This document shows, piece by piece, positions 9,085 through 35,688 of a stretch of DNA of 64,000 bases (position 1 is the first letter of the stretch; every line of letters starts with the position of its first letter). Under the pieces are notes generated by a model, which saw only the letters and a program-made list of their open reading frames with translations, was not told where the DNA came from and ran no database searches. The position numbers and the translations under genes are program-made. Source of the DNA: Deltaproteobacteria bacterium (lineage in GTDB: Bacteria; Desulfobacterota; Binatia; HRBIN30; CADEER01); the NCBI GenBank assembly GCA_033764095.1, contig JANRJF010000068.1, positions 4,199 through 68,198 of the forward strand. The letters are read 5' to 3'.

Positions 9085-9130
9085 CACCGGGGGCACTGTA
9101 TACTCATGGGCTTTCCGGCGAGGCAAGGCG

Positions 9131-16563: not shown

Positions 16564-18474
16564 TTAGTTCAGCTGGTAGGTGACGCGCAGCGCGACCTGA
16601 TCGCGATCGCGGAAGAAGCCGAGCGATTGGTAGGCGCCACTGATGTACTGGTAGTCGGCCTGGAACAGCAGCCAGTCGTTCCAACGATACGTGATCGTCG
16701 GGTGCAGTGCGGCGGTGCCGCGCACGAATTGGATGTAGGTCAGGCGCGGCGAGAGGCGGCCGTGCAGGTAGTCGGTCTGCAGCGTGATCTGGCCCTGCGC
16801 ATCGACGCCGTAGGCGTTCACGTAGTCGTCCTGGAAGGCGCCGCGCTGGCGGAATTGCGTGCAATCGCCGTGGCCGTTCCCCTTGACGCATACCGGGCCT
16901 GGCTTGAGCTGGCCGTTCATGCGGAAGTGGTTGGCCGGATTACTGCCGTCGTACGACGTGTTCCACGAGCCGACGATCGACGAGCTCAGCACGAAGCTGT
17001 TGGTCGGATTGAGGAAGCGGGCGAAGAAAAAGCGGTCGAAGCCGAGCTCGTAGCGCAAAATATCGTTGTAGGGCACGTGACCGGGGCTGGCGAGCTGGTT
17101 CGCGCCGTTCTTGCATGGCTGGTTGTTCTGCGGGTTCTCCGGACAGATGTTCAGGTTGGTCTGCGGCACGAAACCCTGCTCATGCTCAAACAGCTGCGCG
17201 TTAAGGCGGAAGATGCCGTCCACTGTCTCGCTGAAGAACGTCGCGGCGAGACCATAGACCATGGCCGGCTGGTGCTGCAGCGCGACGATGAAAAAGTTGG
17301 TTCCCGGTCCGTCGGGATTGCTGCCGGTGGGCTGACCGATCTGGATCGGCCGGCTGTCGGCATAGCCGATCTTCTTCGGCACTGGGTTGGGGAAGGTGCG
17401 GTAGACCCACGCTTGTGCGGTCAGGAATCGGTTCACGACGGTCTGAAACCGCACGCCCCAGCGGCTGCTGCCGATGTCCGCCTTGGGGATCTGGTCGAAG
17501 AGGACGAACTGGAAGCTGGGCGGGAAGACGCCGCCCGGGTAGCGAAGCGGATCGGAAAGAAGCTGCGGATCGACGCCGCGCGGCGAGTACGGGCTCAGGC
17601 CGACCGGATAGGGGGTGATGGCGACCGTCGAGTCGATGCCGCCCGGCACCCAGTAGCCTTCCAGGAATCCGCTCGACAGCGGACCGAGGGTATCGAAGAT
17701 GTTGTAGCTGGTGCGCACCGTGTACAGCGGGATGCGCGCCTCATCGATGTCCTGGAAGAAGCCCGGCGCGGCCAGGGTGAGGTCGAAGGGATTGCTCTGG
17801 TCGAGCAGTGCGACCGTGTCGGACTCACCCCAGGAGATGCTCTGCTTGCCGACGCGCAGGAAGAAGGGGCCTTTCGAGTAGCTCAGGTAGAGCTCGTTGA
17901 CGCGCGCCTGGTCCGCGTAGATGTCGCGCGGATCGGTCAACTCGGCGCCCGGGAACACGTCGGTGAACTGACGCGGCTGTTGGCAGCCGGAGCCGGCGAC
18001 GCGCGGGTTGCAGAGCTTGATGTTCTGCCCGCGGAAGTACCACCCGCCGACGCGCGGGTTCTGCGGCGTGACGCCGTTGTTGAACGACCGATTGAGGACC
18101 AGCTGCGACTGGTTGAACTGCTGCGAACCGTAGTCGTAGATGCCGTCGTAGAAGCCCCACGCGGCGATGCGAAAGCGGAAGTCGTCCGGCGACAGCCAAT
18201 CGAACGAGCTGCCGTTGAGGAAGTTCGTGTACGGCGTCAGCTTGGCGTCCATCTCCGGGTTGAAGAAGAAGCGGTTCTGGATCAGCTGGCCGGTCTTCGT
18301 GTCGGGCTCGGTGAAGACCTGCGAGTTCTCCGTGCGGATCGACGCCTGCGAGTAGATGCGCGCGCGCAGCGTGACGTTCTGGTCCTCGTCGAGGAAGATC
18401 GCCTGCGCCGTGACGGCAACCAGGCACACTGCACCACCAGCCAGCCACGCCAGCCAGGCTTGCCGTCTGAGCAT
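16564..18474 (-). CDS. DUF1302 family outer-membrane beta-barrel protein
   Basis: Start MLRRQAWLAWLAGGAVCLVAVTAQA (signal peptide) is preceded by GGAAGGAGGGGGAG. About 636 aa, aromatic-rich with a C-terminal ...YQLN terminus, typical of outer-membrane barrels. FLDEDQNVTLRARIYSQ at the mature N-terminus fits DUF1302. Confidence 0.65.
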   Translation of the reverse strand: MLRRQAWLAWLAGGAVCLVAVTAQAIFLDEDQNVTLRARIYSQASIRTENSQVFTEPDTKTGQLIQNRFFFNPEMDAKLTPYTNFLNGSSFDWLSPDDFRFRIAAWGFYDGIYDYGSQQFNQSQLVLNRSFNNGVTPQNPRVGGWYFRGQNIKLCNPRVAGSGCQQPRQFTDVFPGAELTDPRDIYADQARVNELYLSYSKGPFFLRVGKQSISWGESDTVALLDQSNPFDLTLAAPGFFQDIDEARIPLYTVRTSYNIFDTLGPLSSGFLEGYWVPGGIDSTVAITPYPVGLSPYSPRGVDPQLLSDPLRYPGGVFPPSFQFVLFDQIPKADIGSSRWGVRFQTVVNRFLTAQAWVYRTFPNPVPKKIGYADSRPIQIGQPTGSNPDGPGTNFFIVALQHQPAMVYGLAATFFSETVDGIFRLNAQLFEHEQGFVPQTNLNICPENPQNNQPCKNGANQLASPGHVPYNDILRYELGFDRFFFARFLNPTNSFVLSSSIVGSWNTSYDGSNPANHFRMNGQLKPGPVCVKGNGHGDCTQFRQRGAFQDDYVNAYGVDAQGQITLQTDYLHGRLSPRLTYIQFVRGTAALHPTITYRWNDWLLFQADYQYISGAYQSLGFFRDRDQVALRVTYQLN

Positions 18475-18656
18475 CTCCCCCCTCCTTCCGTTCGCACGCG
18501 GTGCCGCGTGTTCCATCGTCGACGTCCGTGCCTGCGAGCCCACCACTCACGCGCGCTCGGCGCGCGCTGCACGTGCGTTGTCCGATTCGAAGACGCCGCG
18601 TTGTAAGCGCGGCGGTTTTGCGCTGTCAAGGCCGCCGGACCGCAGTGCGTCACGCC

Positions 18657-21098
18657 TCAGCCGCGGCGCGCCGCCGCGACGGCGATGACGCCGTCGGCGG
18701 AGAGCGTGACGCTGACCGCGCCATCGCGATCGGTGCGCCAGATCTCGGCGCCGGCGCGCGCGTAGGCGCGCTCGACCTCCGGATGCGGAAAGCCGAAGCG
18801 GTTGTCGGCGCCGGCGGAGATGACGGCGAGGCGCGGCGCGACGGCGCGCAGCCACGGCGCCGAGCTCGAGGTGCGGCTGCCGTGGTGCGGCACCTTGACC
18901 ACGTCGCTCGCCAGCGTCGCGCCCCAGCGCTGCACCAGCGCCGCCTCGCCGGCCGCTTCGAGATCGCCGGGCAGCAGCACGGCGCGGCCGCCGTAGCGCA
19001 GCTGCAGGACCAGCGAATCGTCATTGTCGCCCGGCAGGCGCTCGGCCGGCGGGTGCAGGACGCGCAGCGTGACGCCGTCGATCGACCACGCCGCGCCCGC
19101 CGGCGGTTCGACCAACGCGACGCCGCCGGCGGCGAGCGCGCGGTGCAGGCTGGCGAAGGACGGCCCGCGTCCGGCGCTGCCGTTCCACCACAGGGCGCGC
19201 GGCGCGAACGTTTCGGTGAGGAAGGCGAGGCCGCCGTAGTGATCGAAATCGGGGTGGGTCAACGCCAGCCAGTCGACGTGCGCGATCTTGCGCCGCCAGA
19301 GCTGCGGCGCGACGACGCGTGCGCCGACGTCGAAATGGCCGCCGAGGCCGCCGCCGTCGACCACCAGCACATGCCCGGCGGGGAACTCGACCAGCGTGCA
19401 GTCGCCCTGGCCGACCGAGACGAAGGTGAGGCGCAGGGCGCCCGGCGCCGTGCGCGCCAGCGCCCAGGCGCCGGCGTCCACCGTCAGCGCGAGGGCGCAG
19501 CCGAGCACCGTACGCCGCCGCCAAGCGGAGTCGCGCAGCAGGCAGGCGCCGAGCAGTCCATAGAGCAGTGCCAGCTCCAGCAGTGACGGCGTCACCACCC
19601 GCACGCTGGCCAGCGGCCAGGCGGCGAGCCACGCGGTCAGCCGGTCGGCGGCGCGCACCGCCAGGTCGACGACGGCGAAGAGCGGCGCCACCGCCGGCGG
19701 CGCGATCGCCACCGCCAGCGTACCGAGCAGGCCGGCGCCGATGGTCAGGCCGCCGAGCAACGGCAGCACCAGCGGGTTGGCGAGCGGCGCGATCAGCGAC
19801 ATCTGATTGAAGTGCCAGGCGATCAGGGGCGTGGTGGCGAGCACGGCGCAGGCGCCGACTGCCTGCGAGACCACCACCCAGCGCAGCCAGCCCCAGCGGC
19901 CGTCGCGCAGGCGCAGCAGATGCGCCTCTGCCCAGGCGTCGAAGCCCGCGATCAGCCGCGGCGCGCCGAGCACGATGCCGAGGACGGCGGCAAAGGAGAG
20001 CTGGAAGCCGATGTCGCGCGGCGCCCCCGGCGTGCACAGGGCAATTCCGGCGGCCGCCGCCGCCAGCGGCGCCAGCCAGTCGCGCGGCCGCTCGAGCAGC
20101 AGCGCCGCGGCGACCAGCACGCCCATCGCCTCGGCGCGGCGGGTGGCGACGTTGTCGCCGGCCAGGGCGCCGTACAGGACCACCGGGAGCAGGCTCGCAG
20201 CGGTGGCCAGGTGCGGCACCACGCCGCGCAGCAGCAGGCGCTCGCTGCGCGCCAGCAGCCAGCGCAGCGCGGCGAAGGCGGCCGCGGCGACCAGTCCGAT
20301 GTGCAGGCCGGAGATCGACAGCACGTGGCTGACGCCGGCGCGCGCGAAGCGCTCGCGCACCGCGTCGTCGAGCCCGGCCATGTCGCCGAGCAGCAGCGCG
20401 GCGGCGATCGGCACGGCGGCCGGGTCGAGGTGCGCCGCCAGCGCCGCGGCGGTCGCGGCGCGCCAGTCGTCCAGCCAGGTCCAGGCGTCGCGCGCCGCGG
20501 GCAGGCGCGTCCAACCGCGATCGTCGGCGGCGAACGCCGTCAGCGCGATGCCGCGCCGCGCCAGGAACGCCTCATAGTCGTACTCGTCCGGATTGCCGAA
20601 GTTGCGCGGCCGCCGCAGCGGCAGCAGCGCCTCCAACGCATCGCCGCGCCGCCAGGGCTGCTCGACGCGACGCAGGGTGATCGAGACGCACACCGGCAGC
20701 GGCTGCCACTCGGCGCCGCGGCGCGCGGTCTGCAGCGCGACCACCATTCGCGTCGCGTGCGGTTGGCGCTGCGGTGGCTCGACGATCGTGCCGCGCACCC
20801 AGGCGCGACTGCCGGCAACGCGCATGGCCTCGCCGTCGTCGCGCGCCGCACCGACCTGCCAGAGCCCAACTGCCGCGGACAGGGCGAGTAGCGCGATCGG
20901 CCAGGCCGCCACCGTGCGCCGGTGTGCCGCCAGCGTCAGCGCGGCGATGGCCAACGCCGCCACACGCGGTGCCGTTCCGGGGCACAACGGGGCGAGCAGC
21001 TGTCCGACCAGCAGGCCGGCGGCGAGCCAGTAGAGCGGCGTGATCGGGCGCCGAGCGCTGCGCGGCATGCGCGCGTCGTGTCGATGTGGCGCAGTCAA
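18657..21098 (-). CDS. comEC: DNA internalisation competence protein ComEC/Rec2 (multi-TM channel plus C-terminal metallo-beta-lactamase domain)
   Basis: N-terminal competence domain with many TM helices. HPDFDHYGG and VKVPHHGS are MBL-fold metal ligands. Start could be the Met 10 codons downstream. Confidence 0.8.
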   Translation of the reverse strand: MTAPHRHDARMPRSARRPITPLYWLAAGLLVGQLLAPLCPGTAPRVAALAIAALTLAAHRRTVAAWPIALLALSAAVGLWQVGAARDDGEAMRVAGSRAWVRGTIVEPPQRQPHATRMVVALQTARRGAEWQPLPVCVSITLRRVEQPWRRGDALEALLPLRRPRNFGNPDEYDYEAFLARRGIALTAFAADDRGWTRLPAARDAWTWLDDWRAATAAALAAHLDPAAVPIAAALLLGDMAGLDDAVRERFARAGVSHVLSISGLHIGLVAAAAFAALRWLLARSERLLLRGVVPHLATAASLLPVVLYGALAGDNVATRRAEAMGVLVAAALLLERPRDWLAPLAAAAAGIALCTPGAPRDIGFQLSFAAVLGIVLGAPRLIAGFDAWAEAHLLRLRDGRWGWLRWVVVSQAVGACAVLATTPLIAWHFNQMSLIAPLANPLVLPLLGGLTIGAGLLGTLAVAIAPPAVAPLFAVVDLAVRAADRLTAWLAAWPLASVRVVTPSLLELALLYGLLGACLLRDSAWRRRTVLGCALALTVDAGAWALARTAPGALRLTFVSVGQGDCTLVEFPAGHVLVVDGGGLGGHFDVGARVVAPQLWRRKIAHVDWLALTHPDFDHYGGLAFLTETFAPRALWWNGSAGRGPSFASLHRALAAGGVALVEPPAGAAWSIDGVTLRVLHPPAERLPGDNDDSLVLQLRYGGRAVLLPGDLEAAGEAALVQRWGATLASDVVKVPHHGSRTSSSAPWLRAVAPRLAVISAGADNRFGFPHPEVERAYARAGAEIWRTDRDGAVSVTLSADGVIAVAAARRG

Positions 21099-21225: not shown

Positions 21226-21570
21226 ATGACGACAGGTAGACTGATGATCGCAGCGGCGCTGTTGGCGCTGCTGCTCGGAACGGCACGGCACGCCGGCGCC
21301 GAGGCGCCGGTGAATCTCAACACCGCCTCGGCGACGGAGTTGGAGGGGTTGAAGGGGATCGGGGCGGCGAAGGCGCAGGCGATCGTCGAGCACCGCGAGA
21401 AGAACGGCCAGTTTCAGAGCGTCGACGACCTCAAGCTGGTGCGCGGCATCGGCGACAAGATGCTCGAGCAGTTGCGGCCGCAGGTGACGGTGGGGGGTGG
21501 CAAGGCGGAGGGCGCGGCGGCCGCAGCGCCGATGGCGCCCGCGGCGCCGGCGGCGAAGAAGCAGCCGTAG
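21226..21570 (+). CDS. comEA: ComEA family DNA-binding competence protein (helix-hairpin-helix)
   Basis: Signal peptide, then VNLNTASATELEGLKGIGAAKAQAIVEHREKNGQFQSVDDLKLVRGIG, the canonical ComEA HhH motif. Confidence 0.85.
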   Translation: MTTGRLMIAAALLALLLGTARHAGAEAPVNLNTASATELEGLKGIGAAKAQAIVEHREKNGQFQSVDDLKLVRGIGDKMLEQLRPQVTVGGGKAEGAAAAAPMAPAAPAAKKQP

Positions 21571-21734: not shown

Positions 21735-21837
21735 CTCAACGCAGAGGCGCAGAGTCACAGAGGGCGCAGAGGCATGCAGAAGAGAAATACTGCTCGTCCT
21801 CTCTGCGCTCTTCGCGCCTCTGCCCCTCCGCGTTGAG
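21735..21837. repeat. Long imperfect palindromic element with arms CTCAACGCAGAGGCGCAGAG / CTCTGCCCCTCCGCGTTGAG; related to the elements at 23033 and 25513
   Basis: Seen directly. It shares CTCAAC(A/G)CAGA and GTTGAGTCTC with the 23033-23188 element. Confidence 0.55.
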
Positions 21838-23017
21838 TCTCCGGGTTTGGGAGGGGCATTTGGGCAATCTGTCAGGTAAGTACGCGATCGTCGGCGTCGG
21901 TACCTCGCGCTTCGGCAAGCTGCAGGGCGTCAGCACGATGGGCTTCACGCTGGAGGCCAGCAAGGCGGCGATCGACGACGCCGGGCTGCCGCGCGACGCG
22001 ATCGATGGCGTGCTGGTGATGATGCCGGCGATCATGGGCGAGCAGCACGGCTGGGCGGCGCGCGTCGCAGCGTATCTCGGTGTGGAACCGACCTTCTCGG
22101 CGACCATGGATCTCGGCGGCGCCACCGCCTGCGGCTCGGTCGCCACCGCCATGGCGGCGATCGACGCCGGCTACTGCACCAGCGTGCTGTGCTGCTTCGC
22201 GACGCAGAACTGGCCGCAGGGTGTCGCCATGCAGCTTTTCGGCTCGGAGTTCCAGGTGCCGTACGGCGACGTCGGCGCGCTCACCCTGATGGGCCACATC
22301 AAGCGACGCCAGATGCACGAGCACGGCTACACGCACGAGCAGTACGGTGCCGTGGCGGTCACCTGGCGCGCGCACGCGCTCAACAATCCAGACGCGCAGA
22401 TGAAGAAGCCGATGACGCTCGACCAGTACCTCGCCTCGCGCTGGGTGGTCGAACCGCTGCGCTTGTTCGACTGCTGCCCGAACACCGACGGCGGTGGCGC
22501 CTGCGTCGTCACCTCGGTCGAGCGCGCGCGCGATCTCGCCAAGCGCCCGGCGCGCATTCTCGGTGCCGGCCAGAGCCACTCCGCCGAGATGATCCAGCCG
22601 ACCGGCCGCGATCCCGGCCGCATCTCCGGCAGCAAGGCGGCCGACCAGCTGTACGCCATGGCCGGCGTGACGCCGCGCGACATCGACTGCGCGCAGCTCT
22701 ACGACGCCTTCACGCCGCGCGTCATGCACGACCTGGTCGCCTACGGTTTCTGCGCACCGGGCGAGGCCGGCGCGTTCGTCGCCGCCGGCAACTGCACCTA
22801 CGGCGGCCAACTGCCCTGCAACACCGCCGGCGGCCTGATCTCGGAGGGCCACCTGTCGGGCTTCGGCCACATTCGCGAAGCGGTGCGCCAGCTGCGCGGC
22901 GAGGCCGGTCCGCGCCAGGTGCCGGATACCGAGCTCTGCCTGGTCACCGGTTACGGTGGCGCGCCGCACGAAGCGCCGCCGACGGTGAGCTACAGCGGGT
23001 TGATCCTGGCGCGCTGA
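21833..23017 (+). CDS. Thiolase-like protein, SCP-x / lipid-transfer-protein type (non-condensing acetyl-CoA C-acyltransferase-like)
   Basis: KYAIVGVGTSRFGK at the N-terminus and catalytic-region Cys/His motifs (CGS, GHIKRRQ, NTAGGLISEGH). TTG start at 21833 lies inside the repeat. The true start may be the TTG at about 21860, after GGGAGGGG. Confidence 0.7.
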   Translation: MSLRVWEGHLGNLSGKYAIVGVGTSRFGKLQGVSTMGFTLEASKAAIDDAGLPRDAIDGVLVMMPAIMGEQHGWAARVAAYLGVEPTFSATMDLGGATACGSVATAMAAIDAGYCTSVLCCFATQNWPQGVAMQLFGSEFQVPYGDVGALTLMGHIKRRQMHEHGYTHEQYGAVAVTWRAHALNNPDAQMKKPMTLDQYLASRWVVEPLRLFDCCPNTDGGGACVVTSVERARDLAKRPARILGAGQSHSAEMIQPTGRDPGRISGSKAADQLYAMAGVTPRDIDCAQLYDAFTPRVMHDLVAYGFCAPGEAGAFVAAGNCTYGGQLPCNTAGGLISEGHLSGFGHIREAVRQLRGEAGPRQVPDTELCLVTGYGGAPHEAPPTVSYSGLILAR

Positions 23018-23032
23018 CCCCGCCTGAAACTG

Positions 23033-23188
23033 CTCAACACAGATGAACACAGACCCCGCTCCGCCCGCCCGATGATTCACGGAGCCTCAACCCATCCTGG
23101 AAATGGGAAATGAAAAGGTTGGTGGAGGGTGGGGCTCTGTGGTCATCGGGGTAGGGGGGCGGGCGGATCTGTGTTCATCTGTGTTGAG
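23033..23188. repeat. MITE-like palindromic element: about 32-bp terminal inverted repeats CTCAACACAGATGAACACAGA...CCGCCCGCCC / GGGCGGGCGGATCTGTGTTCATCTGTGTTGAG flanking about 90 bp
   Basis: Seen directly. The GATGAACACAGA core is shared with the element at 25513. Confidence 0.6.
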
Positions 23189-23213
23189 TCTCTGATCTGA
23201 AGAAGAGGGACGC

Positions 23214-23621
23214 ATGTTCGGAGCGATCGAGAAGCCGTTGCCGCGGCCGACTGAGGACAGCGCGCCGTTCTGGGAAGCGGCGTTCAGGGGCGAGCTGCGC
23301 CTGCAGCGCTGCGGCGACTGCGGACACGTGCGCTTTCCGCCTTCACTGTTGTGTGCACGCTGCCTGTCGGCGAACAGCGAGTGGGCGAAGATGAGTGGTC
23401 GCGGCACGGTCTACAGCTGGGTGATCGTGCACCAGTCGCAGCATCCCGCCTTCAATCCCGATGCGCCCTACAACGTCGTCATCGTCGAGCTGGAGGAAGG
23501 GCCGCGCATGCACGGCACCTTCGTCGGCGACAACGATGACATCCGCATCGGCCTGCCGGTCGAGGTGGTGTTCGACAAGGTCAGCGACGACACCGCGCTG
23601 GTGAAGTGGCGCGCCGCCTAA
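23214..23621 (+). CDS. Zn-ribbon / OB-fold protein (DUF35 family), typical partner of SCP-x-type thiolases
   Basis: CGDCGHVRFPPSLLCARC zinc ribbon followed by an OB-fold region. Placed immediately after the thiolase-like gene. Confidence 0.7.
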   Translation: MFGAIEKPLPRPTEDSAPFWEAAFRGELRLQRCGDCGHVRFPPSLLCARCLSANSEWAKMSGRGTVYSWVIVHQSQHPAFNPDAPYNVVIVELEEGPRMHGTFVGDNDDIRIGLPVEVVFDKVSDDTALVKWRAA

Positions 23622-23700
23622 ATTCGCCCCCTCGTCCGTCCGATTCCCTCCCCCGCCCAGCGGGGGAGGGCTAGGGTGGGGGCCCCGCACAGGAGCCACG

Positions 23701-25536
23701 ATGCCAATCGCCAGCCGCGCCAAACCGAACCGCGCCGCCCGCAAGCCGGCGCGGTCACGCGCCGCCACGCCCGCCGTCGACGCGGTGACCGCGGAGATCA
23801 TCCGCGGTGCGATGGAGACCGTCTGCTACGAGATGGCGACGCACGTCTCGCTCACCGCGACGACGCCGATCCTCAACCAGTCGAACGAGCGCAACGCGAC
23901 GATCCTCGACGGCCGCGGCGCGCTGGCGGCGCTCAGCGTCGGCATCCCGCAGTTCATGCTCAGCTCGACGCTGCCGGTGCGCTTCGCGCTGCAGTTCTTC
24001 GGCGCCGACGGCCTGTTCGACGGCGACGTGCTGGTCGCCAACGATCCCTACCACGGCGGCGGTCACCTGCCGGACTACAACATCTTCGCGCCGGTCTTTC
24101 ACCGCGGCGAGCTGGTGCTGATCGCCTCGATCCAGTGCCACCACGCCGATACCGGCGGCGGTATGCCGGGCGGCTACAACGTCGACGCGCAGGACATCTG
24201 GGCCGAAGGTGTTCGCTTCCCGGCGCTGAAGATCTTCGAGAAGGGCGTCGAGCGCAAAGACGTCTCCTACTTCATGAAGGTCAACAACCGCACCCCGACC
24301 TTCGTCGGCGACCTGCGCGCGCAGATCGGCGCGGCGCAACTCGGCGTGCGGCGGCTGAAGGACGTCATCGCCCGGCACGGCGTCGCCGCGGTGCGCGGCG
24401 CGGCGCAGTACATGATCGACTATGCGGCGCGGCGCTTCCGCGAGGAGGTGCGCGGCTGGCGCGACGGCGTGTACGAGTCGGACGTCTTCGTCGACCACGA
24501 CCCGAAGGGCAACAAAGACATCCACATCCACTGCAAGGTGACGGTGAAGGGCGAGCGGCTGACCGTCGACTTCAGCGGCTCCGACACGCGCGACAACCTC
24601 GCCGCCTACTCCACTTTCGGCAACACGCGCGGCTACGTCGTGGCGCAGATCGCCAGCATGATGGATCCGACGATTCCCAAGAACGAGGGGTTCTTCGATT
24701 CGATCGAGCTGATCGTGCCGGAGGGCTGCTGCCTCAACCCGCCGAAGAACAAGTCGGTCGCCGCCGGCACCCATCACCCCGGCACCGAGGTCGGCGAAGC
24801 GATCGCCAAGGCGCTGGAGCAGGTGATCCCCGAGCGCTGCTGCCCGCAGATCTACAAGATGGGCATGCCGACGGTGATCTTCGGCACCAACCCGAAGACC
24901 AAGCAGCTCTTCATCGACCACTCGGTCGACACCTTCGGCGCCTACTGCGGCGCGGTGAAGGGGCAGGACGGCTGGGGGGCGATGAACGTCAGTTTCGGCA
25001 ACCTGATTCGCGCCACCGGCGAGATCAACGAGAGCATCTTCCCGGTGCGCCACCTGGCGCGCGACTACGCCACCGACAGCGGCGGCGCCGGGCGCTGGCG
25101 CGGCTGCCCCGGTACCAAGTACGTGAAACAGATCCTGGCGCCGTCGCAGATCTATACCTACGTCGTCGGCCGCAAGTACCCGATGCCCGGTATCGCCGGC
25201 GGTCACGACGGCGCGCCCAACGAGCTGCGACTGCGCGCCGGCACCGAGCGCGAGCAGCTCGTCGAGACCACCGCCTTCTACGTCCCGCACGAGCCGGGCG
25301 ACCGCTACGAGTACCGCTACGGCGGCGGCGGTGGCTGGGGCGACCCGCTCGAGCGCGAGCCCGAGAAGGTGCTCGACGACGTGCTCGACGAGTACGTCTC
25401 GATCGAGGGCGCCCGCCGCGACTACGGCGTGGTGATTACGGGGACGTTGGAGGCGCTCGACCTGGCGATCGATCAGGCTGCGACCGTCTCGCTGCGTCAG
25501 GAAATGAAGAACGGAACCACGGATGAACACAGATGA
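23701..25536 (+). CDS. hyuB: Hydantoinase B / 5-oxoprolinase family protein (HyuB-like)
   Basis: 611 aa with GDVLVANDPYHGGGHLPD, the HyuB signature. Confidence 0.8.
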   Translation: MPIASRAKPNRAARKPARSRAATPAVDAVTAEIIRGAMETVCYEMATHVSLTATTPILNQSNERNATILDGRGALAALSVGIPQFMLSSTLPVRFALQFFGADGLFDGDVLVANDPYHGGGHLPDYNIFAPVFHRGELVLIASIQCHHADTGGGMPGGYNVDAQDIWAEGVRFPALKIFEKGVERKDVSYFMKVNNRTPTFVGDLRAQIGAAQLGVRRLKDVIARHGVAAVRGAAQYMIDYAARRFREEVRGWRDGVYESDVFVDHDPKGNKDIHIHCKVTVKGERLTVDFSGSDTRDNLAAYSTFGNTRGYVVAQIASMMDPTIPKNEGFFDSIELIVPEGCCLNPPKNKSVAAGTHHPGTEVGEAIAKALEQVIPERCCPQIYKMGMPTVIFGTNPKTKQLFIDHSVDTFGAYCGAVKGQDGWGAMNVSFGNLIRATGEINESIFPVRHLARDYATDSGGAGRWRGCPGTKYVKQILAPSQIYTYVVGRKYPMPGIAGGHDGAPNELRLRAGTEREQLVETTAFYVPHEPGDRYEYRYGGGGGWGDPLEREPEKVLDDVLDEYVSIEGARRDYGVVITGTLEALDLAIDQAATVSLRQEMKNGTTDEHR

Positions 25537-25622
25537 ACACGGATGGCTTCAGATCGTGATGAATCGAGTTCTTGATTCTCTGTCGGAGTCAATCTGTGTT
25601 CATCCGTGTTCATCCGTGGTTC
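25513..25622. repeat. Palindromic element with arms GGAACCACGGATGAACACAGATGAACACGGATGG / CAATCTGTGTTCATCCGTGTTCATCCGTGGTTCC; the left arm encodes the last 8 codons and stop of hyuB
   Basis: Seen directly. The GATGAACAC core is duplicated in each arm. Confidence 0.6.
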
Positions 25623-25641
25623 CGGCTTTGGTTCTGATGCG

Positions 25642-27699
25642 ATGAGTTACCGCATCGGGATCGACGTCGGCGGCACGTTCACCGACCTGGTGCTGGCGCG
25701 GCCGGATGGCTCGATCGCGCTGGCCAAGAGTCCGACGACGCCGGACGATCAGTCGCGCGGCGTGGTCAACGGCATCGGGCTGCTCGCCGAGGGTGAAGGG
25801 CTGACGCTGCAGGCGCTGCTCAGCAGGACCAGCGCGGTCGTGCACGGCACCACCACCGCCGACAACACGATGATCGAGATGAGCGGCGCAGTGACCGGCC
25901 TGATCACCACGGCGGGACATCGCGACGAGATCGAGCTGCGCCGCGGCTACAAGGAGGACATCTGGGATCCGGCGATCGCGCCGCCGCCGCCGATCGCACC
26001 GCGCCGGCGCCGCATCGGCGTGCCGGAGCGGCTCGACTACGAGGGCCACGTCGTCACGCCGCTCGACGAGGACGCGGTGCGCGCCGCGCTGAGGCGGCTG
26101 AAGCAACTGGGTACCGAATCGCTCGCCGTCGTCTTCATGTTCTCGTTCGTCAACTCGGCGCACGAGCAGCGCGTGCGCGCGATCGCCGCCGAGGAGTGTC
26201 CGGGGCTGCCGGTGTCGCTGTCGCACGAGGTGATGCCGTCGGCGCCGGAGTTCGAGCGCACCAGCACGACGTTGGTCAACGCCTTCGTCGGCCCGAAGAT
26301 CCAACGCTACCTCGAGCGCCTGGTGCGGGCGCTGCGCGAGGCCGGCTACGCGCGCGAGCTGCTGGTCATGCAGTCGAACGGCGGCATCATGACGCCCGAG
26401 TACATCGCGCACCGGCCGGTGACGACGCTCAGCTCCGGTCCGACCGGCGGCGTCATCGCCGCGTGCGCAGTGGCGGGCAGAGCCGGCGTGCACGACTTCG
26501 TCTGCGCCGACATGGGCGGCACCAGCTACGACATCTGTCTGATCCGCGGCGGCCAGCCGGAGGTGAAGGCGGGTTGGAACTGGCATCACCGCTACCTGGT
26601 CGGCCTGCCGATGGTGGACATACACTCGATCGGTGCCGGCGGCGGCTCGATCGCGTCGGTGGTCGCCGGCGCGTTGCAGGTCGGCCCGCGCAGCGCCGGC
26701 GCGCAGCCGGGACCGATCTGCTACGACCGCGGCGGCACGCAGATCACGGTCACCGACGCCAACCTGTTGCTCGGCTATCTGAACCCCGGCGACTTCTGCG
26801 CCGGTCGCATGACGCTCAAGACCGCCGGCGTGCGCGAGGCGATCGAGGCGCAGGTGGCGAAGCCGCTCGGCGTCGACTGGGTCGAGGCGGCGCACGGCAT
26901 CTATCGGCTGGTGAACGCCAACATGGCGAACGCGATCCGCCGCGTCGCGGCGACGCGCGGTGTCGATCCGCGCGGTCTCACCATGGTCGCATACGGCGGC
27001 AACGGCCCGGTGCACGCCACCGCGCAGGCGGACGAGCTGGCGGTCGAAGAGGTGCTGGTGCCGAAAGTGGCGCCGGCGTTTTCGGCGCTGGGGCTGCAGC
27101 TGTCCGACCACCTGGTCGACGAGATGCATGCCTACATCGCGCCGGTCGGCCAGGCGGATGTGTCACGCGTCAACGCGCTGTTCGGCGAGATGGAAGCTGC
27201 GGCGCGCGGCGTGCTCGGCAAGCGCAAGGAGCAACACAAGCGCGTCGAGGTGCGGCGCTTCCTCAACCTCTGCTACCCGGGCCAGACCTTCGACATGGCG
27301 GTGCCGGTGGCGTCGGCCAATGGCCGCCTCAAGTCAGACAGCCTGGCCGCCACCGTCGAGCGCTTCCACGCCCTGCACGAGGAGCTGCACACCTACGCCT
27401 CGCGCGATGAGCAGCCGATCCTGCGCGGCCTGCGTCTGACGCTGGTCGGCGTCACCGAGAAGCCCGACCTGCCGCGCTTCGGCCGCTCGAGCAGCAAGCC
27501 GCCGCTCAAGGGGCGTCGCCAGGCGTTCTTCGGCGGCCGCTTCGTCAGCGCGCCGCTCTACGACGGCGCCAAGGTGCGCGTCGGCCACCGCATCGCTGGC
27601 CCGGCGATCATCGAGGAGCCGTTCACGACCATCGTCCTGCACCCCAAGCAGGTGGCGACGCTCGACCGGCACGGCAACTACCACATCCGCGTCGGGTGA
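25642..27699 (+). CDS. hyuA: Hydantoinase A / 5-oxoprolinase family protein (HyuA-like), ASKHA-fold ATPase
   Basis: MSYRIGIDVGGTFTDLVL is the HyuA N-terminus, followed by ADMGGTSYD. Start set at the first ATG. The GTG at 25606 in the track lies within the repeat. Confidence 0.8.
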   Translation: MSYRIGIDVGGTFTDLVLARPDGSIALAKSPTTPDDQSRGVVNGIGLLAEGEGLTLQALLSRTSAVVHGTTTADNTMIEMSGAVTGLITTAGHRDEIELRRGYKEDIWDPAIAPPPPIAPRRRRIGVPERLDYEGHVVTPLDEDAVRAALRRLKQLGTESLAVVFMFSFVNSAHEQRVRAIAAEECPGLPVSLSHEVMPSAPEFERTSTTLVNAFVGPKIQRYLERLVRALREAGYARELLVMQSNGGIMTPEYIAHRPVTTLSSGPTGGVIAACAVAGRAGVHDFVCADMGGTSYDICLIRGGQPEVKAGWNWHHRYLVGLPMVDIHSIGAGGGSIASVVAGALQVGPRSAGAQPGPICYDRGGTQITVTDANLLLGYLNPGDFCAGRMTLKTAGVREAIEAQVAKPLGVDWVEAAHGIYRLVNANMANAIRRVAATRGVDPRGLTMVAYGGNGPVHATAQADELAVEEVLVPKVAPAFSALGLQLSDHLVDEMHAYIAPVGQADVSRVNALFGEMEAAARGVLGKRKEQHKRVEVRRFLNLCYPGQTFDMAVPVASANGRLKSDSLAATVERFHALHEELHTYASRDEQPILRGLRLTLVGVTEKPDLPRFGRSSSKPPLKGRRQAFFGGRFVSAPLYDGAKVRVGHRIAGPAIIEEPFTTIVLHPKQVATLDRHGNYHIRVG

Positions 27700-27704: not shown

Positions 27705-28820
27705 TTACGCCGCCTTGAAGGCGCGGCCGATCTTCTTGCGGTCCTTGTTGATGTCGCGCAGCGCCGCGATGCCGGCGTCGACCACTTCGGCGCCGACCAC
27801 CTCGTCGGACTCGCCGGCGAGCTCGTCCATGTCGACCCACATCGCGTAGGTCGCCTTGGTGCGCTCGGTGATGATGCCGGCCTTGAGCAGCGTCTTGATC
27901 AGGACGCGGAAGATGTTGGTGCTCTCGCGCATCAGGCGGCGGCGATCGGTGTCGGTGAACGCCTCCATCACGGCGCCGCGCACCCACTGCCAGTCGAGGC
28001 CGAACTGGGCGTAGATCGCCTGCTTCTGCTCGGAGTTGACCAGGTTGAAGAGCAGCGTCTCGAAGCACTTCGCCGCCCAGGCCTCGACCTTCTCGTGCTC
28101 CTCCTCGCTCAGCTTGGGTACCGTGCGGTCGGCCCAGATCTTGCCGAATTTATGGTGGAAGGCTTCGTCGGTCATCACCATCTGCACCATGCGGCGCAAC
28201 AGCGGGTCGTTGGTCTTCGAGTGGATGGTGGCGAAGGCGCCCATCGCCAGGCCTTCGATCAGCATCTGCATGCCGACCAGCTTCTTGTAGACCTCGGGCG
28301 CCAGCACCAGCTCGATCATCAGGTTCTTCAGCGTCGGACCGACCGCCAGCGGGGTTCCCCAGCGGCGCTCGATGTACTTCGCGAAGGCGGTGACGTGGCG
28401 CGCCTCTTCGCGCGTCTGGTTGGCGGCGTACTCCTGCGCGCCGGGATCGCGCAGGATCATGCACAGGCTGGCCGACAGCGACAGTGCGCCCTGCTCGCCG
28501 TGCAGGATGCTGGACAGCGTGAAGCGGGTGTTCTCGTTGGCGAGGTGCAGTTGCTGGCGCTCGTCGAGCTTGTCGGCCACCGCGCTGTTCAGCTCGACCA
28601 CCATCGAGCGCGGCATGATGTACTCGTTGGTGAGGTCGAACGGCTCGGCGTAGTTCAGATACGCGGCGTCGGTCGGATCCCAGAAGTGGTCGTGCGTCGC
28701 GGCGATGATCTTGTCGAACGCGTCGGCGCGGTCGCCGTAGCGCTCCGGCTCGATCATCGAAGCGAAGTCGTCGCGATCGACGGTGTTGTAGATCGGGTCG
28801 TGGGTGATGTGCTGCGACAT
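27705..28820 (-). CDS. Ferritin-like di-iron carboxylate protein, AurF/p-aminobenzoate N-oxygenase-like
   Basis: Paired ExxH motifs TREEARHVTAF and MTDEAFHHKFG, plus LIEGLAMGAF. 371 aa. GC lower than surroundings. Confidence 0.55.
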   Translation of the reverse strand: MSQHITHDPIYNTVDRDDFASMIEPERYGDRADAFDKIIAATHDHFWDPTDAAYLNYAEPFDLTNEYIMPRSMVVELNSAVADKLDERQQLHLANENTRFTLSSILHGEQGALSLSASLCMILRDPGAQEYAANQTREEARHVTAFAKYIERRWGTPLAVGPTLKNLMIELVLAPEVYKKLVGMQMLIEGLAMGAFATIHSKTNDPLLRRMVQMVMTDEAFHHKFGKIWADRTVPKLSEEEHEKVEAWAAKCFETLLFNLVNSEQKQAIYAQFGLDWQWVRGAVMEAFTDTDRRRLMRESTNIFRVLIKTLLKAGIITERTKATYAMWVDMDELAGESDEVVGAEVVDAGIAALRDINKDRKKIGRAFKAA

Positions 28821-34687: not shown

Positions 34688-35688
34688 TCGGCGACGCGCA
34701 GCACGCCGGCGCCCTCGAAGCCGTCGTACTTGAGCTGCTGGAGCGCCTGGTTCGCATCGGCGAGATCGAACGGCACGGTGCGTGGTCGGATCGGGATCTC
34801 CGCGGCGAGCCGCAGCAACTCGATGCCGTCCTGGCGGGTGTTGGCGGTGACGCTCTGCAGCGTGCGCTCCTGGAACAGGTGACGCTGGTAGTCGAGCGGC
34901 GGGATGGCGCTCAGGTGGATGCCGGCGAGCGCCAGTGTGCCGCCGCGGTCGAGTGCCGCCAGGGCAGGGAGGACGAGCTCGCCGGCCGGCGCGAACAACA
35001 CCGCGCTGTCGAGTGGCTCGGGCGGCGCGTCGGCCGCGGCCCCGGTCCACTCGGCGCCGAGCGACGCGGCGAGGCGGCGATGGCGTGCCTCACGGGTCAT
35101 GACGAAGACGCGGCAGCCGAGGTGGCGCGCGACCTGGATGGCGATGTGCGCCGAGGCGCCGAACCCGTAGAGGCCGACGCGCCCGCCGGGGCGCAGGTTG
35201 GCGCGGCGCAGGGCGCGGTAGCCGATGATGCCGGCGCACAGCAGCGGCGCGGCCTCGGCGTCGCCGATCGCGTCGGGGAGCACATAGGCGAAATCTTCGC
35301 GCACCAGCGCGTAGTCGGCGTAGCCGCCGTCCGCCGACCAACCGGTGAAGCTCGCCGCCGCGCAGAGGTTCTCGTCGCCGCGTTGACAGTACGCGCAGAC
35401 CCCGCAGGTCGAGCGCAGCCAGGCGATGCCGACGCGCTGGCCGGCGGCGAGGCGGGTGCAGCCGGGGCCGAGCGCGTCGACCACGCCGACCACCTGGTGA
35501 CCGGGCACGACGCGCGGGCGCTGCACCGCGAGGTCGCCCTCGACGACGTGCAGATCGGTGCGACAGATGCCGCAGACGTGCACCCGCACCCGCACCTCGC
35601 CGGCGCCGGGATCGGGCGGCGGTCGTTCGACCAGTTGCAGCGGCGCGGTGTCCACCGGCGCCGGTCGCTCGAGTTGCATGGCGCGCAT
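34684..35688 (-). CDS. Zinc-dependent alcohol dehydrogenase family protein (MDR superfamily)
   Basis: MRAMQLERPAP...VCGICRTDLHVVEGD..GHQVVGVV..CGVCAYCQRGDENLC (structural Zn Cys cluster)...GLYGFGASAH. Confidence 0.8.
   Translation of the reverse strand: MRAMQLERPAPVDTAPLQLVERPPPDPGAGEVRVRVHVCGICRTDLHVVEGDLAVQRPRVVPGHQVVGVVDALGPGCTRLAAGQRVGIAWLRSTCGVCAYCQRGDENLCAAASFTGWSADGGYADYALVREDFAYVLPDAIGDAEAAPLLCAGIIGYRALRRANLRPGGRVGLYGFGASAHIAIQVARHLGCRVFVMTREARHRRLAASLGAEWTGAAADAPPEPLDSAVLFAPAGELVLPALAALDRGGTLALAGIHLSAIPPLDYQRHLFQERTLQSVTANTRQDGIELLRLAAEIPIRPRTVPFDLADANQALQQLKYDGFEGAGVLRVAD

What the first reader, a model, noticed from the sequence alone, without database searches (positions are those of the whole stretch)
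21833..27699. Unusual gene set: SCP-x-type thiolase plus DUF35 OB-fold protein directly upstream of hydantoinase B then A, with no gamma subunit
Thiolase-like/DUF35 pairs act as retro-aldol or thiolytic C-C cleaving modules on CoA esters (steroid side chain, benzylsuccinate pathways). HyuA/HyuB-type enzymes are ATP-dependent carboxylases or lactam/hydantoin hydrolases (acetone and acetophenone carboxylase, oxoprolinase, caprolactamase). Their juxtaposition in one co-oriented block, with B before A and no small gamma subunit, is not a textbook arrangement. It suggests an uncharacterised ATP-dependent ring-opening or carboxylation step feeding a CoA-dependent cleavage.
Basis: partly seen in the sequence, partly recalled or inferred. 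Interest (0 to 1): 0.55.

Follow-up and report, generated by a model that had tools for sequence, protein, structure and literature searches.

The report
Aldolase-like thiolase pair beside ATP-dependent hydantoinase
In an uncultured Binatia bacterium, a thiolase-like enzyme that has lost its thiolase nucleophile (so it probably cuts C-C bonds as an aldolase) and its zinc-ribbon partner sit next to a two-subunit ATP-dependent hydantoinase/lactamase-type enzyme; this arrangement is inherited across the class and probably marks an uncharacterised CoA-dependent degradation route.

Summary
The four genes are real and co-oriented: thiolase-like, DUF35, HyuB, HyuA, with no gamma subunit. The organism is a Candidatus Binatia MAG. 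"B before A, no gamma" is not odd. HyuBA scores with the two-subunit hydrolase branch (caprolactamase, N-methylhydantoinase), which never has gamma, and caprolactamase is encoded capB-capA. The "thiolase" has Gly at the nucleophilic-Cys position and YDAF instead of HDCF, like the steroid aldolases Ltp2 and Sal, so retro-aldol cleavage is more likely than thiolysis. Synteny is conserved but not obligate. DUF35/thiolase lies upstream of HyuB in 24 of 47 informative species genomes. HyuB lies downstream of thiolase orthologues in 23 of 31 informative metagenome loci. The fuller block in relatives is enoyl-CoA hydratase, acyl-CoA synthetase, thiolase-like, DUF35, acyl-CoA dehydrogenase, HyuB, HyuA; the window holds a reduced version. 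Either module occurs without the other. The linkage outlasts changes of flanking genes. HyuBA orthologues elsewhere have independently joined other CoA-ester gene sets, including a paralogous Ltp2-type aldolase/DUF35/hydratase/ligase set and a Chloroflexi ACAD/hydratase operon. A shared pathway is plausible but unproven, and the substrate is unknown. It is a new variant of known kinds and moderately interesting.

The parts
21860..23017 (+). Thiolase-superfamily, SCP2/Ltp2-like protein (385 aa; longest ORF starts at 21833). Predicted non-thiolytic retro-aldolase.
   Evidence: Pfam Thiolase_C_1 1.7e-39. Best solved relatives are Ltp2 aldolase 6ok1_A (224 bits), 4u4e (218) and Sal 9myr_A. Gly at the nucleophilic-Cys position, YDAF in place of HDCF, His kept in SEGHLSG. 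Start at TTG 21860 behind GGAGG, matching P0121.
23214..23621 (+). DUF35 protein (135 aa): C-x2-C-x10-C-x2-C zinc ribbon plus OB fold; the usual partner subunit of thiolase-like enzymes.
   Evidence: Pfam zf-ChsH2 2.3e-12 and OB_ChsH2_C 4.8e-22. Best solved relatives are the Shy DUF35 domain 9myr_B (4e-26) and ChsH2 DUF35 6ok1_B (1e-19). The Cys spacing is read from the translation and matches the canonical C4 motif in PMC12329534.
23701..25536 (+). HyuB-type (beta, metal-site) subunit of a two-subunit ATP-dependent hydantoinase/lactamase-family enzyme (611 aa).
   Evidence: Pfam Hydantoinase_B 1e-127 over the full model. PDB: caprolactamase CapB 243 bits, N-methylhydantoinase 239, Apc 118, Acx 69. 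Metal tetrad Glu63-His-Asp-His is present and invariant in 76 orthologues.
25642..27699 (+). HyuA-type (alpha, ASKHA ATP-binding) subunit (685 aa from ATG 25642; longest ORF starts at GTG 25606).
   Evidence: Pfam Hydant_A_N, Hydantoinase_A and Hydant_A_C. PDB: CapA 446 bits, N-methylhydantoinase 392, Apc 354, Acx 290. Phosphate-binding motifs DVGGTFTD and DMGGTS are conserved.

Best explanation
The four genes are a trimmed copy of a co-oriented gene block inherited across Candidatus Binatia. Its fuller form is enoyl-CoA hydratase, acyl-CoA synthetase, thiolase-like protein, DUF35, acyl-CoA dehydrogenase, HyuB, HyuA. Module 1 (thiolase-like + DUF35) is predicted to be an Ltp2/Sal-type complex. 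It would cleave a 3-hydroxyacyl-CoA by a retro-aldol reaction, giving acetyl- or propionyl-CoA plus an aldehyde or ketone, rather than by thiolysis, because the acyl-accepting Cys is replaced by Gly and the aldolase catalytic Tyr is present. Module 2 (HyuB + HyuA) is a two-subunit (alpha-beta)2 enzyme of the hydantoinase/lactamase branch. By analogy, HyuA uses ATP to phosphorylate a carbonyl oxygen (amide or ketone) as the imidate or enol, and the HyuB metal site then completes the reaction, most likely hydrolytic ring opening. The two modules probably serve one CoA-dependent degradative route for an unidentified substrate. Shown: gene identities, active-site residues, synteny statistics. Inferred: aldolase chemistry, ATP-dependent carbonyl activation, and the shared pathway.
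For: Identities. Aldolase-type site: the nucleophilic Cys of true thiolases (7yvy AACASG, 6hsj NNCSTGS) aligns with Gly; Tyr of YDxF equals Ltp2 Tyr294 and Sal Tyr302 (PMC12329534); GG and YD[A/G]F are conserved in the orthologues. The partner operon has hydratase, ligase and ACAD but no 3-hydroxyacyl-CoA dehydrogenase. Hyd-branch assignment: bit scores 243/239 versus 118/69 for HyuB and 446/392 versus 354/290 for HyuA; two subunits only; ATP and metal motifs intact. Linkage: 24/47 and 23/31 informative loci. Adjacency occurs in deep and shallow branches of the HyuB tree with different flanks (HAD, ComEA, DUF1302). Median DUF35-to-HyuB gap is 103 bp, and divergence of the thiolase-like protein and HyuB is correlated, r = 0.87. 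Independent re-associations: L044 HyuB-HyuA-Thl'(Tyr/Tyr type)-DUF35'-hot-dog hydratase-CoA ligase; L042 HyuBA-hydratase; L054 HyuBA-ECH; L059 (Chloroflexi) ACAD-ACAD-ECH-MaoC-ACAD-HyuB-HyuA-SDR flanked by CoA-transferases. Only one paralogous thiolase-like gene occurs in 777 kb of HyuB-anchored flanks.
Against: Either module occurs without the other. HyuBA sits directly after ComEA in L001, L020, L024 and L026, and in unrelated contexts in L002, L028, L045 and L062. Thl-DUF35 with ECH/ACS/ACAD but no HyuBA within 3-7.5 kb occurs in L069-71, L079 and L086. A 13-kb insert including a type I R-M system separates the modules in L144/L010. Clearly unrelated genes (ComEC, ComEA, DUF1302) are almost as syntenic in the crown clade, so part of the signal is inherited collinearity. 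The window itself lacks ECH, ACS and ACAD and is otherwise housekeeping. Neither known aldolase acid residue is present (Ltp2 Tyr344 is His here; Sal Cys304 is Ala). No substrate can be named, and no NCBIfam equivalog cut-off is reached. There are no expression or biochemical data.
Confidence: 0.5

Rival explanations
1. Neighbours by descent only. HyuBA is a stand-alone, near-housekeeping ATP-dependent amidohydrolase (for example a 5-oxoprolinase or other lactamase). The thiolase-like/DUF35 pair belongs to an unrelated beta-oxidation-type operon. They are adjacent because Binatia chromosomes keep an old gene order.
For: The window and L001 are collinear across many housekeeping genes (S49 peptidase, SDR, UbiA, epimerase, DUF1302, ComEC, ComEA ... 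phosphodiesterase), with only Thl-DUF35 missing in L001. ComEA and DUF1302 are similarly syntenic. The modules separate in both directions and tolerate a 13-kb insertion. HyuB is extremely conserved (75-95% within the class, active-site motifs invariant in 76 of 76), as expected of a core function. About half of HyuBA loci have no CoA genes nearby.
Against: Thl-DUF35-HyuB adjacency persists in deep lineages where ComEA and DUF1302 are no longer neighbours (L031, L033, L034, L038-40, L107, L125), with gaps of 13-110 bp. Non-orthologous CoA-ester and aldolase sets are found beside HyuBA in L044, L042, L054 and L059, while the background density of thiolase-like genes is about 1 per 777 kb.
Confidence: 0.3
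2. Ketone-carboxylase reading. The retro-aldolase releases a ketone (as Ltp2 does), and HyuBA is a gamma-less relative of acetone/acetophenone carboxylase. It would carboxylate that ketone with ATP and bicarbonate to a beta-keto acid, which re-enters CoA metabolism through the ligase.
For: Ltp2-type aldolases produce ketones (PMC12329534), and ketones are the substrates of the carboxylase branch of this family (PMC5214803). The tightest, most persistent linkage is aldolase-DUF35-HyuB. HyuB has Glu at the first metal-ligand position, as only acetone carboxylase does (Glu89), and this is invariant in the clade (PMC8453981). Caprolactamase itself needs bicarbonate, so the chemistry of the branches is close.
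Against: Sequence similarity to the carboxylases is much lower than to the hydrolases. HyuB is 611 aa, like CapB (581), not Acx alpha (776). All characterised carboxylases have a gamma subunit and none is encoded here (PMC5214803). Acetophenone carboxylase has Asp at that position, so Glu is not diagnostic. No literature support was found.
Confidence: 0.12
3. One reading: a genuine SCP-x-type thiolase/DUF35 pair performs thiolytic cleavage of a 3-oxoacyl-CoA downstream of a HyuAB step.
For: Thiolase fold and DUF35 partner, as in benzoylsuccinyl-CoA thiolase BbsAB. The His of the GH(P) motif is retained.
Against: Gly replaces the acyl-accepting Cys, and Tyr/Ala replace the His/Cys of HDCF, in the window protein and its orthologues. 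No 3-hydroxyacyl-CoA dehydrogenase is found in the conserved block. Scores against all NCBIfam thiolase equivalogs are far below cut-off.
Confidence: 0.05

Closest known systems
Ltp2-ChsH2(DUF35) steroid side-chain aldolase of Thermomonospora curvata (PDB 6OK1)
   Same: Best solved relative of the thiolase-like protein (224 bits), and ChsH2 DUF35 is the second-best for the DUF35 protein. Gly at the thiolase nucleophile position; catalytic Tyr of the YDxF motif conserved; C4 zinc-ribbon DUF35 partner (PMC12329534).
   Different: The second catalytic Tyr (Tyr344) is His here, and the His of YDHF is Ala. DUF35 is a free-standing protein, not the C-terminal domain of a MaoC hydratase. The partner hydratase in relatives is a crotonase, not MaoC. 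There is no steroid-degradation context.
Sal-Shy(DUF35) bile-acid side-chain aldolase of Comamonas testosteroni (PDB 9MYR)
   Same: The DUF35 protein's best solved match (4e-26). Sal also has Gly at the nucleophile position and the catalytic Tyr (YDCY).
   Different: Sal's essential Cys304 is Ala here. Sal's DUF35 has a Cys3His zinc site, whereas this one has the canonical C4 site.
Caprolactamase CapAB of Pseudomonas jessenii (PDB 6YRA) and ATP-dependent N-methylhydantoinase (PDB 7HK5)
   Same: Closest solved relatives of HyuB and HyuA. Two subunits, no gamma, gene order B then A in P. jessenii, ASKHA ATP motifs and a His-Asp-His metal site.
   Different: Clearly divergent from both solved relatives (243 and 239 bits over the full length for HyuB) and well below NCBIfam equivalog cut-offs (631 and 294 bits against 1000). 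The first metal ligand is Glu, not Asp. CapB's vicinal Cys410-Cys411 and several pocket residues are not conserved, so the substrate differs.
Predicted 2-oxoindoleacetyl-CoA gamma-lactamase subcluster of the Hyd branch (Aromatoleum, anaerobic indoleacetate pathway)
   Same: A Hyd-branch HyuAB-type enzyme proposed to act on a CoA thioester within a beta-oxidation-like pathway (PMC5214803). This is the same logic as a HyuBA step coupled to CoA-dependent cleavage.
   Different: That pathway's gene set and substrate are specific to indoleacetate, and nothing in these loci points to it.
Acetone carboxylase (AcxABC) and acetophenone carboxylase (Apc)
   Same: Same superfamily, and the same ATP-dependent carbonyl phosphorylation idea. 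Glu at the first metal-ligand position matches Acx Glu89.
   Different: Weak similarity (69-118 bits for HyuB), a longer catalytic subunit, and an obligatory gamma (plus alpha' and epsilon in Apc), none of which is present here.
Benzoylsuccinyl-CoA thiolase BbsAB (PDB 7PXP)
   Same: A thiolase-like subunit plus a DUF35 subunit, encoded next to acyl-CoA dehydrogenase and enoyl-CoA hydratase genes.
   Different: BbsB is a true thiolase working after a hydroxyacyl-CoA dehydrogenase. Here the nucleophile is missing and no such dehydrogenase is in the block. Similarity is only 110 bits, and 116 and 39 bits against cut-offs of 750 and 250.

Membership tests
SCP2/SCP-x-type thiolase (catalytically competent) | Thiolase fold (N- and C-terminal thiolase domains) | tested here: met
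   Pfam Thiolase_C_1 135 bits. Thiolase_N 24.6 bits, just under its cut-off. Full-length alignments to solved thiolase-superfamily chains.
SCP2/SCP-x-type thiolase (catalytically competent) | Nucleophilic, acyl-accepting Cys (NNC-x-TGS / AAC-x-SG motif) | tested here: not met
   Aligns with the second Gly of 'DLGGATACGS' against 7yvy 'AACASG' and 6hsj 'NNCSTGS'. 'GG' is found in the orthologues.
SCP2/SCP-x-type thiolase (catalytically competent) | HDCF motif (His plus acid/base Cys) | tested here: not met
   The window has YDAF. Orthologues have YD[A/G]F.
SCP2/SCP-x-type thiolase (catalytically competent) | His of the GH(P) motif | tested here: met
   'SEGHLSG' aligns with 'KGHPLG' and 'RGHPVG' of 6hsj and 7yvy.
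Ltp2/Sal-type thiolase-fold retro-aldolase | Catalytic base Tyr in the YDxF/Y motif and no thiolase nucleophile | tested here: met
   The Tyr of YDAF aligns with Ltp2 Tyr294 and Sal Tyr302; Gly at the nucleophile position.
Ltp2/Sal-type thiolase-fold retro-aldolase | Catalytic acid: Tyr344 (Ltp2) or Cys304 (Sal) | tested here: not met
   His at the Tyr344 position and Ala at the Cys304 position. A different acid (possibly that His) would be needed.
Ltp2/Sal-type thiolase-fold retro-aldolase | DUF35 (zinc ribbon + OB fold) partner | tested here: met
   An adjacent gene with zf-ChsH2 + OB_ChsH2_C and C-x2-C-x10-C-x2-C spacing. Best hits are 9myr_B and 6ok1_B.
Ltp2/Sal-type thiolase-fold retro-aldolase | Works after an enoyl-CoA hydratase, without a 3-hydroxyacyl-CoA dehydrogenase | tested here: inconclusive
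   Orthologues in about 30 loci have a crotonase directly upstream, often with an ACS and an ACAD and no dehydrogenase. The window itself lacks all of these.
Ltp2/Sal-type thiolase-fold retro-aldolase | Retro-aldol activity on a 3-hydroxyacyl-CoA | not testable with these tools
   Needs enzyme assays.
ATP-dependent hydantoinase/oxoprolinase/lactamase (Hyd branch) | Two subunits only: HyuA-type (ASKHA) and HyuB-type, no gamma | tested here: met
   Family definition from PMC5214803.
ATP-dependent hydantoinase/oxoprolinase/lactamase (Hyd branch) | ATP phosphate-binding motifs DxGGTxTD and DxGGT in the alpha subunit | tested here: met
   DVGGTFTD and DMGGTS, conserved in the orthologues (PMC8453981).
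ATP-dependent hydantoinase/oxoprolinase/lactamase (Hyd branch) | [quoted passage not shown] | tested here: met
   Glu63, the His and Asp of 'GGHLPD', and the first His of 'CHHAD' align with CapB Asp41, His99, Asp102 and His124. These are invariant in the orthologues.
ATP-dependent hydantoinase/oxoprolinase/lactamase (Hyd branch) | Closer to the hydrolases than to the carboxylases | tested here: met
   HyuB 243 and 239 bits versus 118 and 69. HyuA 446 and 392 versus 354 and 290. No formal tree with characterised members was built.
Caprolactamase CapAB (specific function) | NCBIfam equivalog cut-off (1000 bits for each subunit) | tested here: not met
   631 bits (alpha) and 294 bits (beta). CapB pocket residues, including Cys410-Cys411, are not conserved.
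Acetone/acetophenone carboxylase | Small zinc-binding gamma subunit (plus alpha' and epsilon in Apc) | tested here: not met
   No additional ORF in the block. DUF35 has no other family match.
Acetone/acetophenone carboxylase | Sequence membership (NCBIfam Apc equivalogs; similarity to Acx alpha) | tested here: not met
   129 and 366 bits against a cut-off of 1500. 69 bits to Acx alpha.
5-oxoprolinase (OPLAH type) | Activity on 5-oxoproline, or clustering with characterised oxoprolinases | not testable with these tools
   No characterised oxoprolinase sequence was available to compare. A proposed diagnostic Lys in CapA could not be mapped reliably.

The most novel reading that the evidence does not exclude
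The aldolase-like enzyme and HyuBA form a new two-step unit. Retro-aldol cleavage of a beta-branched (tertiary) 3-hydroxyacyl-CoA releases a ketone. A gamma-less, hydrolase-sized HyuBA then carboxylates that ketone with ATP and bicarbonate, and the CoA ligase re-activates the product. This would be an oxygen-independent way to degrade beta-methyl-branched or isoprenoid-type (or ring-bearing) acids, and the first two-subunit ketone carboxylase. The persistent Thl-DUF35-HyuB trio, sometimes without HyuA nearby, could even reflect a physical complex scaffolded by DUF35.
Probability: 0.1. Interest if true: 0.8.

Novelty: new variant of a known kind. Interest (0 to 1): 0.45.

Why it matters
Binatia are abundant, uncultured soil and sediment bacteria credited with hydrocarbon and methylotrophic metabolism. 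A class-wide conserved block linking an ATP-dependent carbonyl-activating enzyme to a CoA-dependent hydratase/aldolase module would define an undescribed degradative route. It would also extend thiolase-fold aldolases beyond steroid side chains. The thiolase-like clade (Gly / Y-D-[A/G]-F / His) has a catalytic-residue combination matching neither thiolases nor the two characterised aldolases. The HyuB clade has an invariant Glu at a metal-ligand position otherwise seen only in acetone carboxylase. Both give specific, testable hypotheses. If the genes are merely neighbours, the result is ordinary: two uncharacterised members of well-known families.

Tried and rejected
(1) DUF35 as a stand-in for the carboxylase gamma subunit. 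It matches only the ChsH2-type families at E<=0.1, pairs with the thiolase-like gene exactly as in 6OK1 and 9MYR, and Apc gamma has a different Cys spacing (PMC5214803). Rejected.

(2) My recollection that an ATP-dependent step of anaerobic steroid side-chain degradation uses a hydantoinase-like enzyme. No paper combines Sterolibacterium, ATP-dependent and hydantoinase. Dropped.

(3) Literature searches for hydantoinase + thiolase + DUF35 or OB-fold returned nothing. Searches for indoleacetate/hydantoinase/thiolase and acetone carboxylase/isoprenoid/methyl ketone returned only irrelevant papers. The Binatota genome paper does not mention these genes.

(4) Substrate hints from NCBIfam for the partner ECH, ACS and ACAD. 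The best names (EchA19-like, long-chain or steroid-type ligases, acryloyl-CoA-reductase-like ACAD) are all well below cut-off. Not informative.

(5) The plasmid collection, to find cultured relatives with annotated context. No HyuB relative above 33% identity.

(6) The 'Lys40' marker said to separate oxoprolinases from lactamases. My residue count from the alignment did not place a Lys at that number. Not used.

(7) Promoter and terminator scans. None above the shuffled expectation.

(8) Checking whether L001's 4.77-Mb genome encodes the thiolase orthologue elsewhere. It was not in the top 120 hits. Unresolved.

Full report
OBSERVATION. The window is about 70% G+C, so I selected real genes by third-position GC. 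Four co-oriented genes fill the reported interval: 21833-23017, 23214-23621, 23701-25536 and 25606-27699. Pfam identifies them as follows:
- a thiolase-superfamily protein (Thiolase_C_1, 1.7e-39);
- a DUF35 protein (zf-ChsH2 + OB_ChsH2_C);
- HyuB (Hydantoinase_B, 1e-127, full length);
- HyuA (three Hydantoinase_A-type domains).

No further coding ORF lies between ComEA (21226-21570) and the convergent gene at 27705-28820, so there is no gamma-type subunit. The thiolase-like gene most likely starts at TTG 21860, behind a GGAGG site. That gives the 385-aa protein P0121, which is 100% identical and comes from a 72,881-bp MAG contig. HyuA probably starts at ATG 25642.

ORGANISM AND SETTING. The nearest HyuB homologues (75-95% identity) come from MAGs named Candidatus Binatia or, in older records, Deltaproteobacteria. 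The rest of the window is chromosomal housekeeping, with no enoyl-CoA hydratase, acyl-CoA ligase or acyl-CoA dehydrogenase. It includes:
- DUF1329 and DUF1302 outer-membrane proteins, ComEC and ComEA;
- HpnM and MlaA;
- RpoD and a 1615-aa NAD-glutamate dehydrogenase;
- inositol-phosphate enzymes.

WHAT THE HyuBA PAIR IS. Similarity to solved, characterised relatives (NCBIfam agrees):

| Subunit | Caprolactamase (bits) | N-methylhydantoinase (bits) | Acetophenone carboxylase (bits) | Acetone carboxylase (bits) |
|---|---|---|---|---|
| HyuB | 243 | 239 | 118 | 69 |
| HyuA | 446 | 392 | 354 | 290 |

In NCBIfam the best models are the caprolactamase subunits, but at 631 and 294 bits against cut-offs of 1000.

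The Apc structure paper states that hydantoinases/oxoprolinases have only two subunits and that gamma is absent from every Hyd complex (PMC5214803). The caprolactamase paper shows the P. jessenii genes are arranged capB-capA (PMC8453981). So "B before A with no gamma" is the normal state of the hydrolase branch and not an anomaly.

The ATP motifs (DVGGTFTD, DMGGTS) and the metal tetrad are intact. One peculiarity is that the first metal ligand is Glu ('SNERN'), invariant in 76 of 76 orthologues. Caprolactamase, N-methylhydantoinase and Apc have Asp there, and only acetone carboxylase has Glu (Glu89). CapB's substrate-pocket residues are not conserved, so the substrate differs and remains unknown.

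WHAT THE 'THIOLASE' IS. Its best solved relatives are the steroid side-chain aldolase Ltp2 (6OK1, 224 bits), an uncharacterised Sphaerobacter protein (4U4E) and the bile-acid aldolase Sal (9MYR). The DUF35 protein's best matches are the DUF35 partners in 9MYR and 6OK1.

Alignments to true thiolases (7YVY, 6HSJ) place their nucleophilic Cys opposite the second Gly of 'DLGGATACGS'. The SCP2 motif HDCF is YDAF here. According to PMC12329534:
- the Tyr of YDxF is the catalytic base of both aldolases;
- a Gly at the nucleophile position precludes thiolysis;
- the catalytic acid is Tyr344 in Ltp2 and Cys304 in Sal.

The window protein has the Tyr and the Gly, but His and Ala at the two acid positions. 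The thiolase GH-motif His is retained. These features (GG, YD[A/G]F, SEGHLSG) are conserved among the orthologues. I therefore predict a non-thiolytic, retro-aldol-type enzyme representing a third residue combination. It meets the fold criterion for the thiolase family but fails two catalytic criteria. It meets the main aldolase criteria but not the acid-residue one.

IS THE JUXTAPOSITION CONSERVED? I fetched 59 species-representative genome loci anchored on HyuB and 80 metagenome loci anchored on the thiolase-like protein. I mapped ten window proteins and four partner proteins onto them.
- Among HyuB-anchored loci with enough upstream sequence, 24 of 47 have DUF35 (with the thiolase-like gene) within 1.5 kb upstream.
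- Among thiolase-orthologue loci (at least 58% identity) with enough downstream sequence, 23 of 31 have HyuB within 2 kb.
- None of 9 paralogue-level pairs does.

The fuller block seen in many relatives is ECH, [ACS], Thl, DUF35, [ACAD], HyuB, HyuA. Examples are L015, L016, L082, L093 and L095. Pfam confirms crotonase, AMP-binding ligase and acyl-CoA dehydrogenase, and there is no 3-hydroxyacyl-CoA dehydrogenase. The window's lineage (L005, L013, L060, L064, L068 and others) has lost ECH, ACS and ACAD from the locus.

SEPARABILITY.
- HyuBA follows ComEA directly in L001, L020, L024 and L026.
- HyuBA sits in unrelated contexts in L002, L028, L045 and L062.
- ECH-ACS-Thl-DUF35-ACAD occurs without HyuBA nearby in L069-71, L079 and L086.
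- In one contig (L144/L010) the two modules keep their order and orientation but are 13 kb apart, separated by a type I restriction-modification island among other genes.
- Functionally unrelated neighbours (DUF1302, ComEC, ComEA) are nearly as syntenic in the crown clade.

Part of the signal is therefore inherited collinearity.

EVIDENCE FOR MORE THAN COLLINEARITY.
(i) Ordered by a HyuB tree, the Thl-DUF35-HyuB adjacency occurs in deep and shallow branches with different flanks. It persists where DUF1302 and ComEA are no longer neighbours, for example HAD-Thl-DUF35-HyuB with 13-28-bp gaps in L033 and L038-40.
(ii) The median DUF35-to-HyuB distance is 103 bp, and divergence of the thiolase-like protein and HyuB from the window is correlated (r = 0.87).
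(iii) HyuBA orthologues lacking the orthologous pair are found beside other, non-orthologous CoA-ester genes:
- L044: HyuB-HyuA-Thl'-DUF35'-double-hot-dog hydratase-CoA ligase. Thl' is 42% identical and of the Ltp2 Tyr/Tyr type.
- L042: HyuBA followed by a hot-dog hydratase.
- L054: HyuBA followed by ECH.
- L059 (Chloroflexi): HyuBA embedded in ACAD-ACAD-ECH-MaoC-ACAD-HyuB-HyuA-SDR, flanked by family III CoA-transferases.
In 777 kb of HyuB-anchored sequence there is only one paralogous thiolase-like gene, and it is the one adjacent to HyuA in L044.
(iv) A Hyd-branch subcluster is already predicted to hydrolyse a CoA-bound lactam, 2-oxoindoleacetyl-CoA (PMC5214803).

MECHANISM. Steps shown: the gene identities, residues and synteny. 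Steps inferred: the chemistry.

In relatives with the full block, an acid would be activated by the ligase, desaturated by the ACAD and hydrated by the crotonase. The Thl-like/DUF35 complex would then cleave it retro-aldol-wise to acetyl- or propionyl-CoA plus an aldehyde or ketone.

HyuA would use ATP to phosphorylate a carbonyl oxygen, and the HyuB metal site would complete the reaction. Given the branch it belongs to, that reaction is most likely hydrolytic opening of a cyclic amide. The substrate could be the starting compound or one of its CoA esters.

I put about 0.5 on the two modules serving one pathway and about 0.3 on mere inherited neighbourhood. About 0.12 goes to the specific variant in which HyuBA carboxylates the ketone released by the aldolase, and about 0.05 to genuine thiolysis.

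COMPARISON AND NOVELTY. Each component belongs to a known superfamily, and neither reaches any curated equivalog threshold. The library searches found no description of a hydantoinase with a thiolase/DUF35 association. No relative above 33% identity exists in the plasmid collection of cultured organisms. I rate it a new variant of known kinds: a class-wide, uncharacterised gene block with an unusual aldolase-like catalytic set and an unusual HyuB metal ligand. Interest is moderate (0.45). The synteny evidence is real, but the link is not obligate and no substrate can be named.

UNEXPLAINED.
- The invariant Glu63 in HyuB.
- Loci with Thl-DUF35-HyuB but no HyuA within 10 kb (L033, L038-40).
- An alpha/beta-hydrolase gene between Thl and DUF35 in the deep clade.
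- The identity of the catalytic acid in the thiolase-like protein.

Noticed in passing
window 27705-28820 (-): Ferritin-like/AurF-like putative diiron protein (371 aa), convergent with HyuA. The Pfam AurF score is just under cut-off (27 versus 29.6 bits) and no NCBIfam family matches. It is co-conserved at 79-86% identity immediately after HyuA in the window's lineage (L005, L007, L013, L048, L064, L068, L074, L077), followed by HpnM and MlaA. Function unknown.
   Followed up: partly
window 23701-25536, residue 63 of HyuB: The first metal-ligand position is Glu ('SNERN'), invariant in 76 of 76 orthologues across four phyla. Caprolactamase, N-methylhydantoinase and acetophenone carboxylase have Asp, and only acetone carboxylase has Glu (Glu89).
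   Followed up: partly
L033 7708-11851; also L038, L039, L040, L032: A deep Binatia clade has HAD-hydrolase, Thl, DUF35, HyuB packed with 13-28-bp gaps but no HyuA within up to 10 kb downstream (a SulP/STAS permease follows). This is odd for an enzyme that normally needs both subunits.
   Followed up: partly
L125 about 9140-9961; L031, L034, L106, L107 equivalent gaps: A conserved gene of about 275 aa for an alpha/beta-hydrolase (Abhydrolase_1, 9.5e-36) lies between the thiolase-like gene and DUF35 in deep-branching loci, on the same strand.
   Followed up: partly
L144 12930-19162 (same contig as L010): A type I restriction-modification system (HsdM, HsdS, HsdR) is part of a 13-kb insertion between the ACAD gene and HyuB. 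The backbone order tolerates island insertion.
   Followed up: no
L013 about 8380-8775; L007 about 2460-2849: A small PD-(D/E)XK_3 (GxxExxY-type) ORF is inserted between the thiolase-like gene and DUF35 in some close relatives. In the window the same spacer is 196 bp and non-coding.
   Followed up: partly
window 8855-10432 (+) and 16564-18546 (-): DUF1329 and DUF1302 outer-membrane-type proteins. DUF1302 lies upstream of the block, on the opposite strand, in most crown-clade Binatia loci, sometimes with ComEC/ComEA (window 18657-21098 and 21226-21570) wedged in between.
   Followed up: partly
L059 3039-19915 (Chloroflexi MAG): A large CoA-ester cluster with HyuBA in the middle: CoA-transferase III, two ACADs, ECH, MaoC/FAS1_DH hydratase, a third ACAD, HyuB, HyuA, an SDR, an amidohydrolase and a second CoA-transferase III. 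It is a candidate system for working out the HyuBA substrate.
   Followed up: partly
window 35558-37579 (+), 39785-41964 (+), 6614-8098 (-), 48571-49746 (+): Codon-bias-supported ORFs with no Pfam family. 35558-37579 overlaps the ADH gene 34684-35883 (-) by about 325 bp, and 39785-40702 overlaps 40309-41964, so their starts or reading frames are doubtful.
   Followed up: no
window 50550-55397 (-): A 1615-aa NAD-specific glutamate dehydrogenase (Bac_GDH_CD with ACT and helical domains). RpoD (43636-45432) and inositol-1-phosphate synthase and monophosphatase genes are nearby. All ordinary housekeeping.
   Followed up: no
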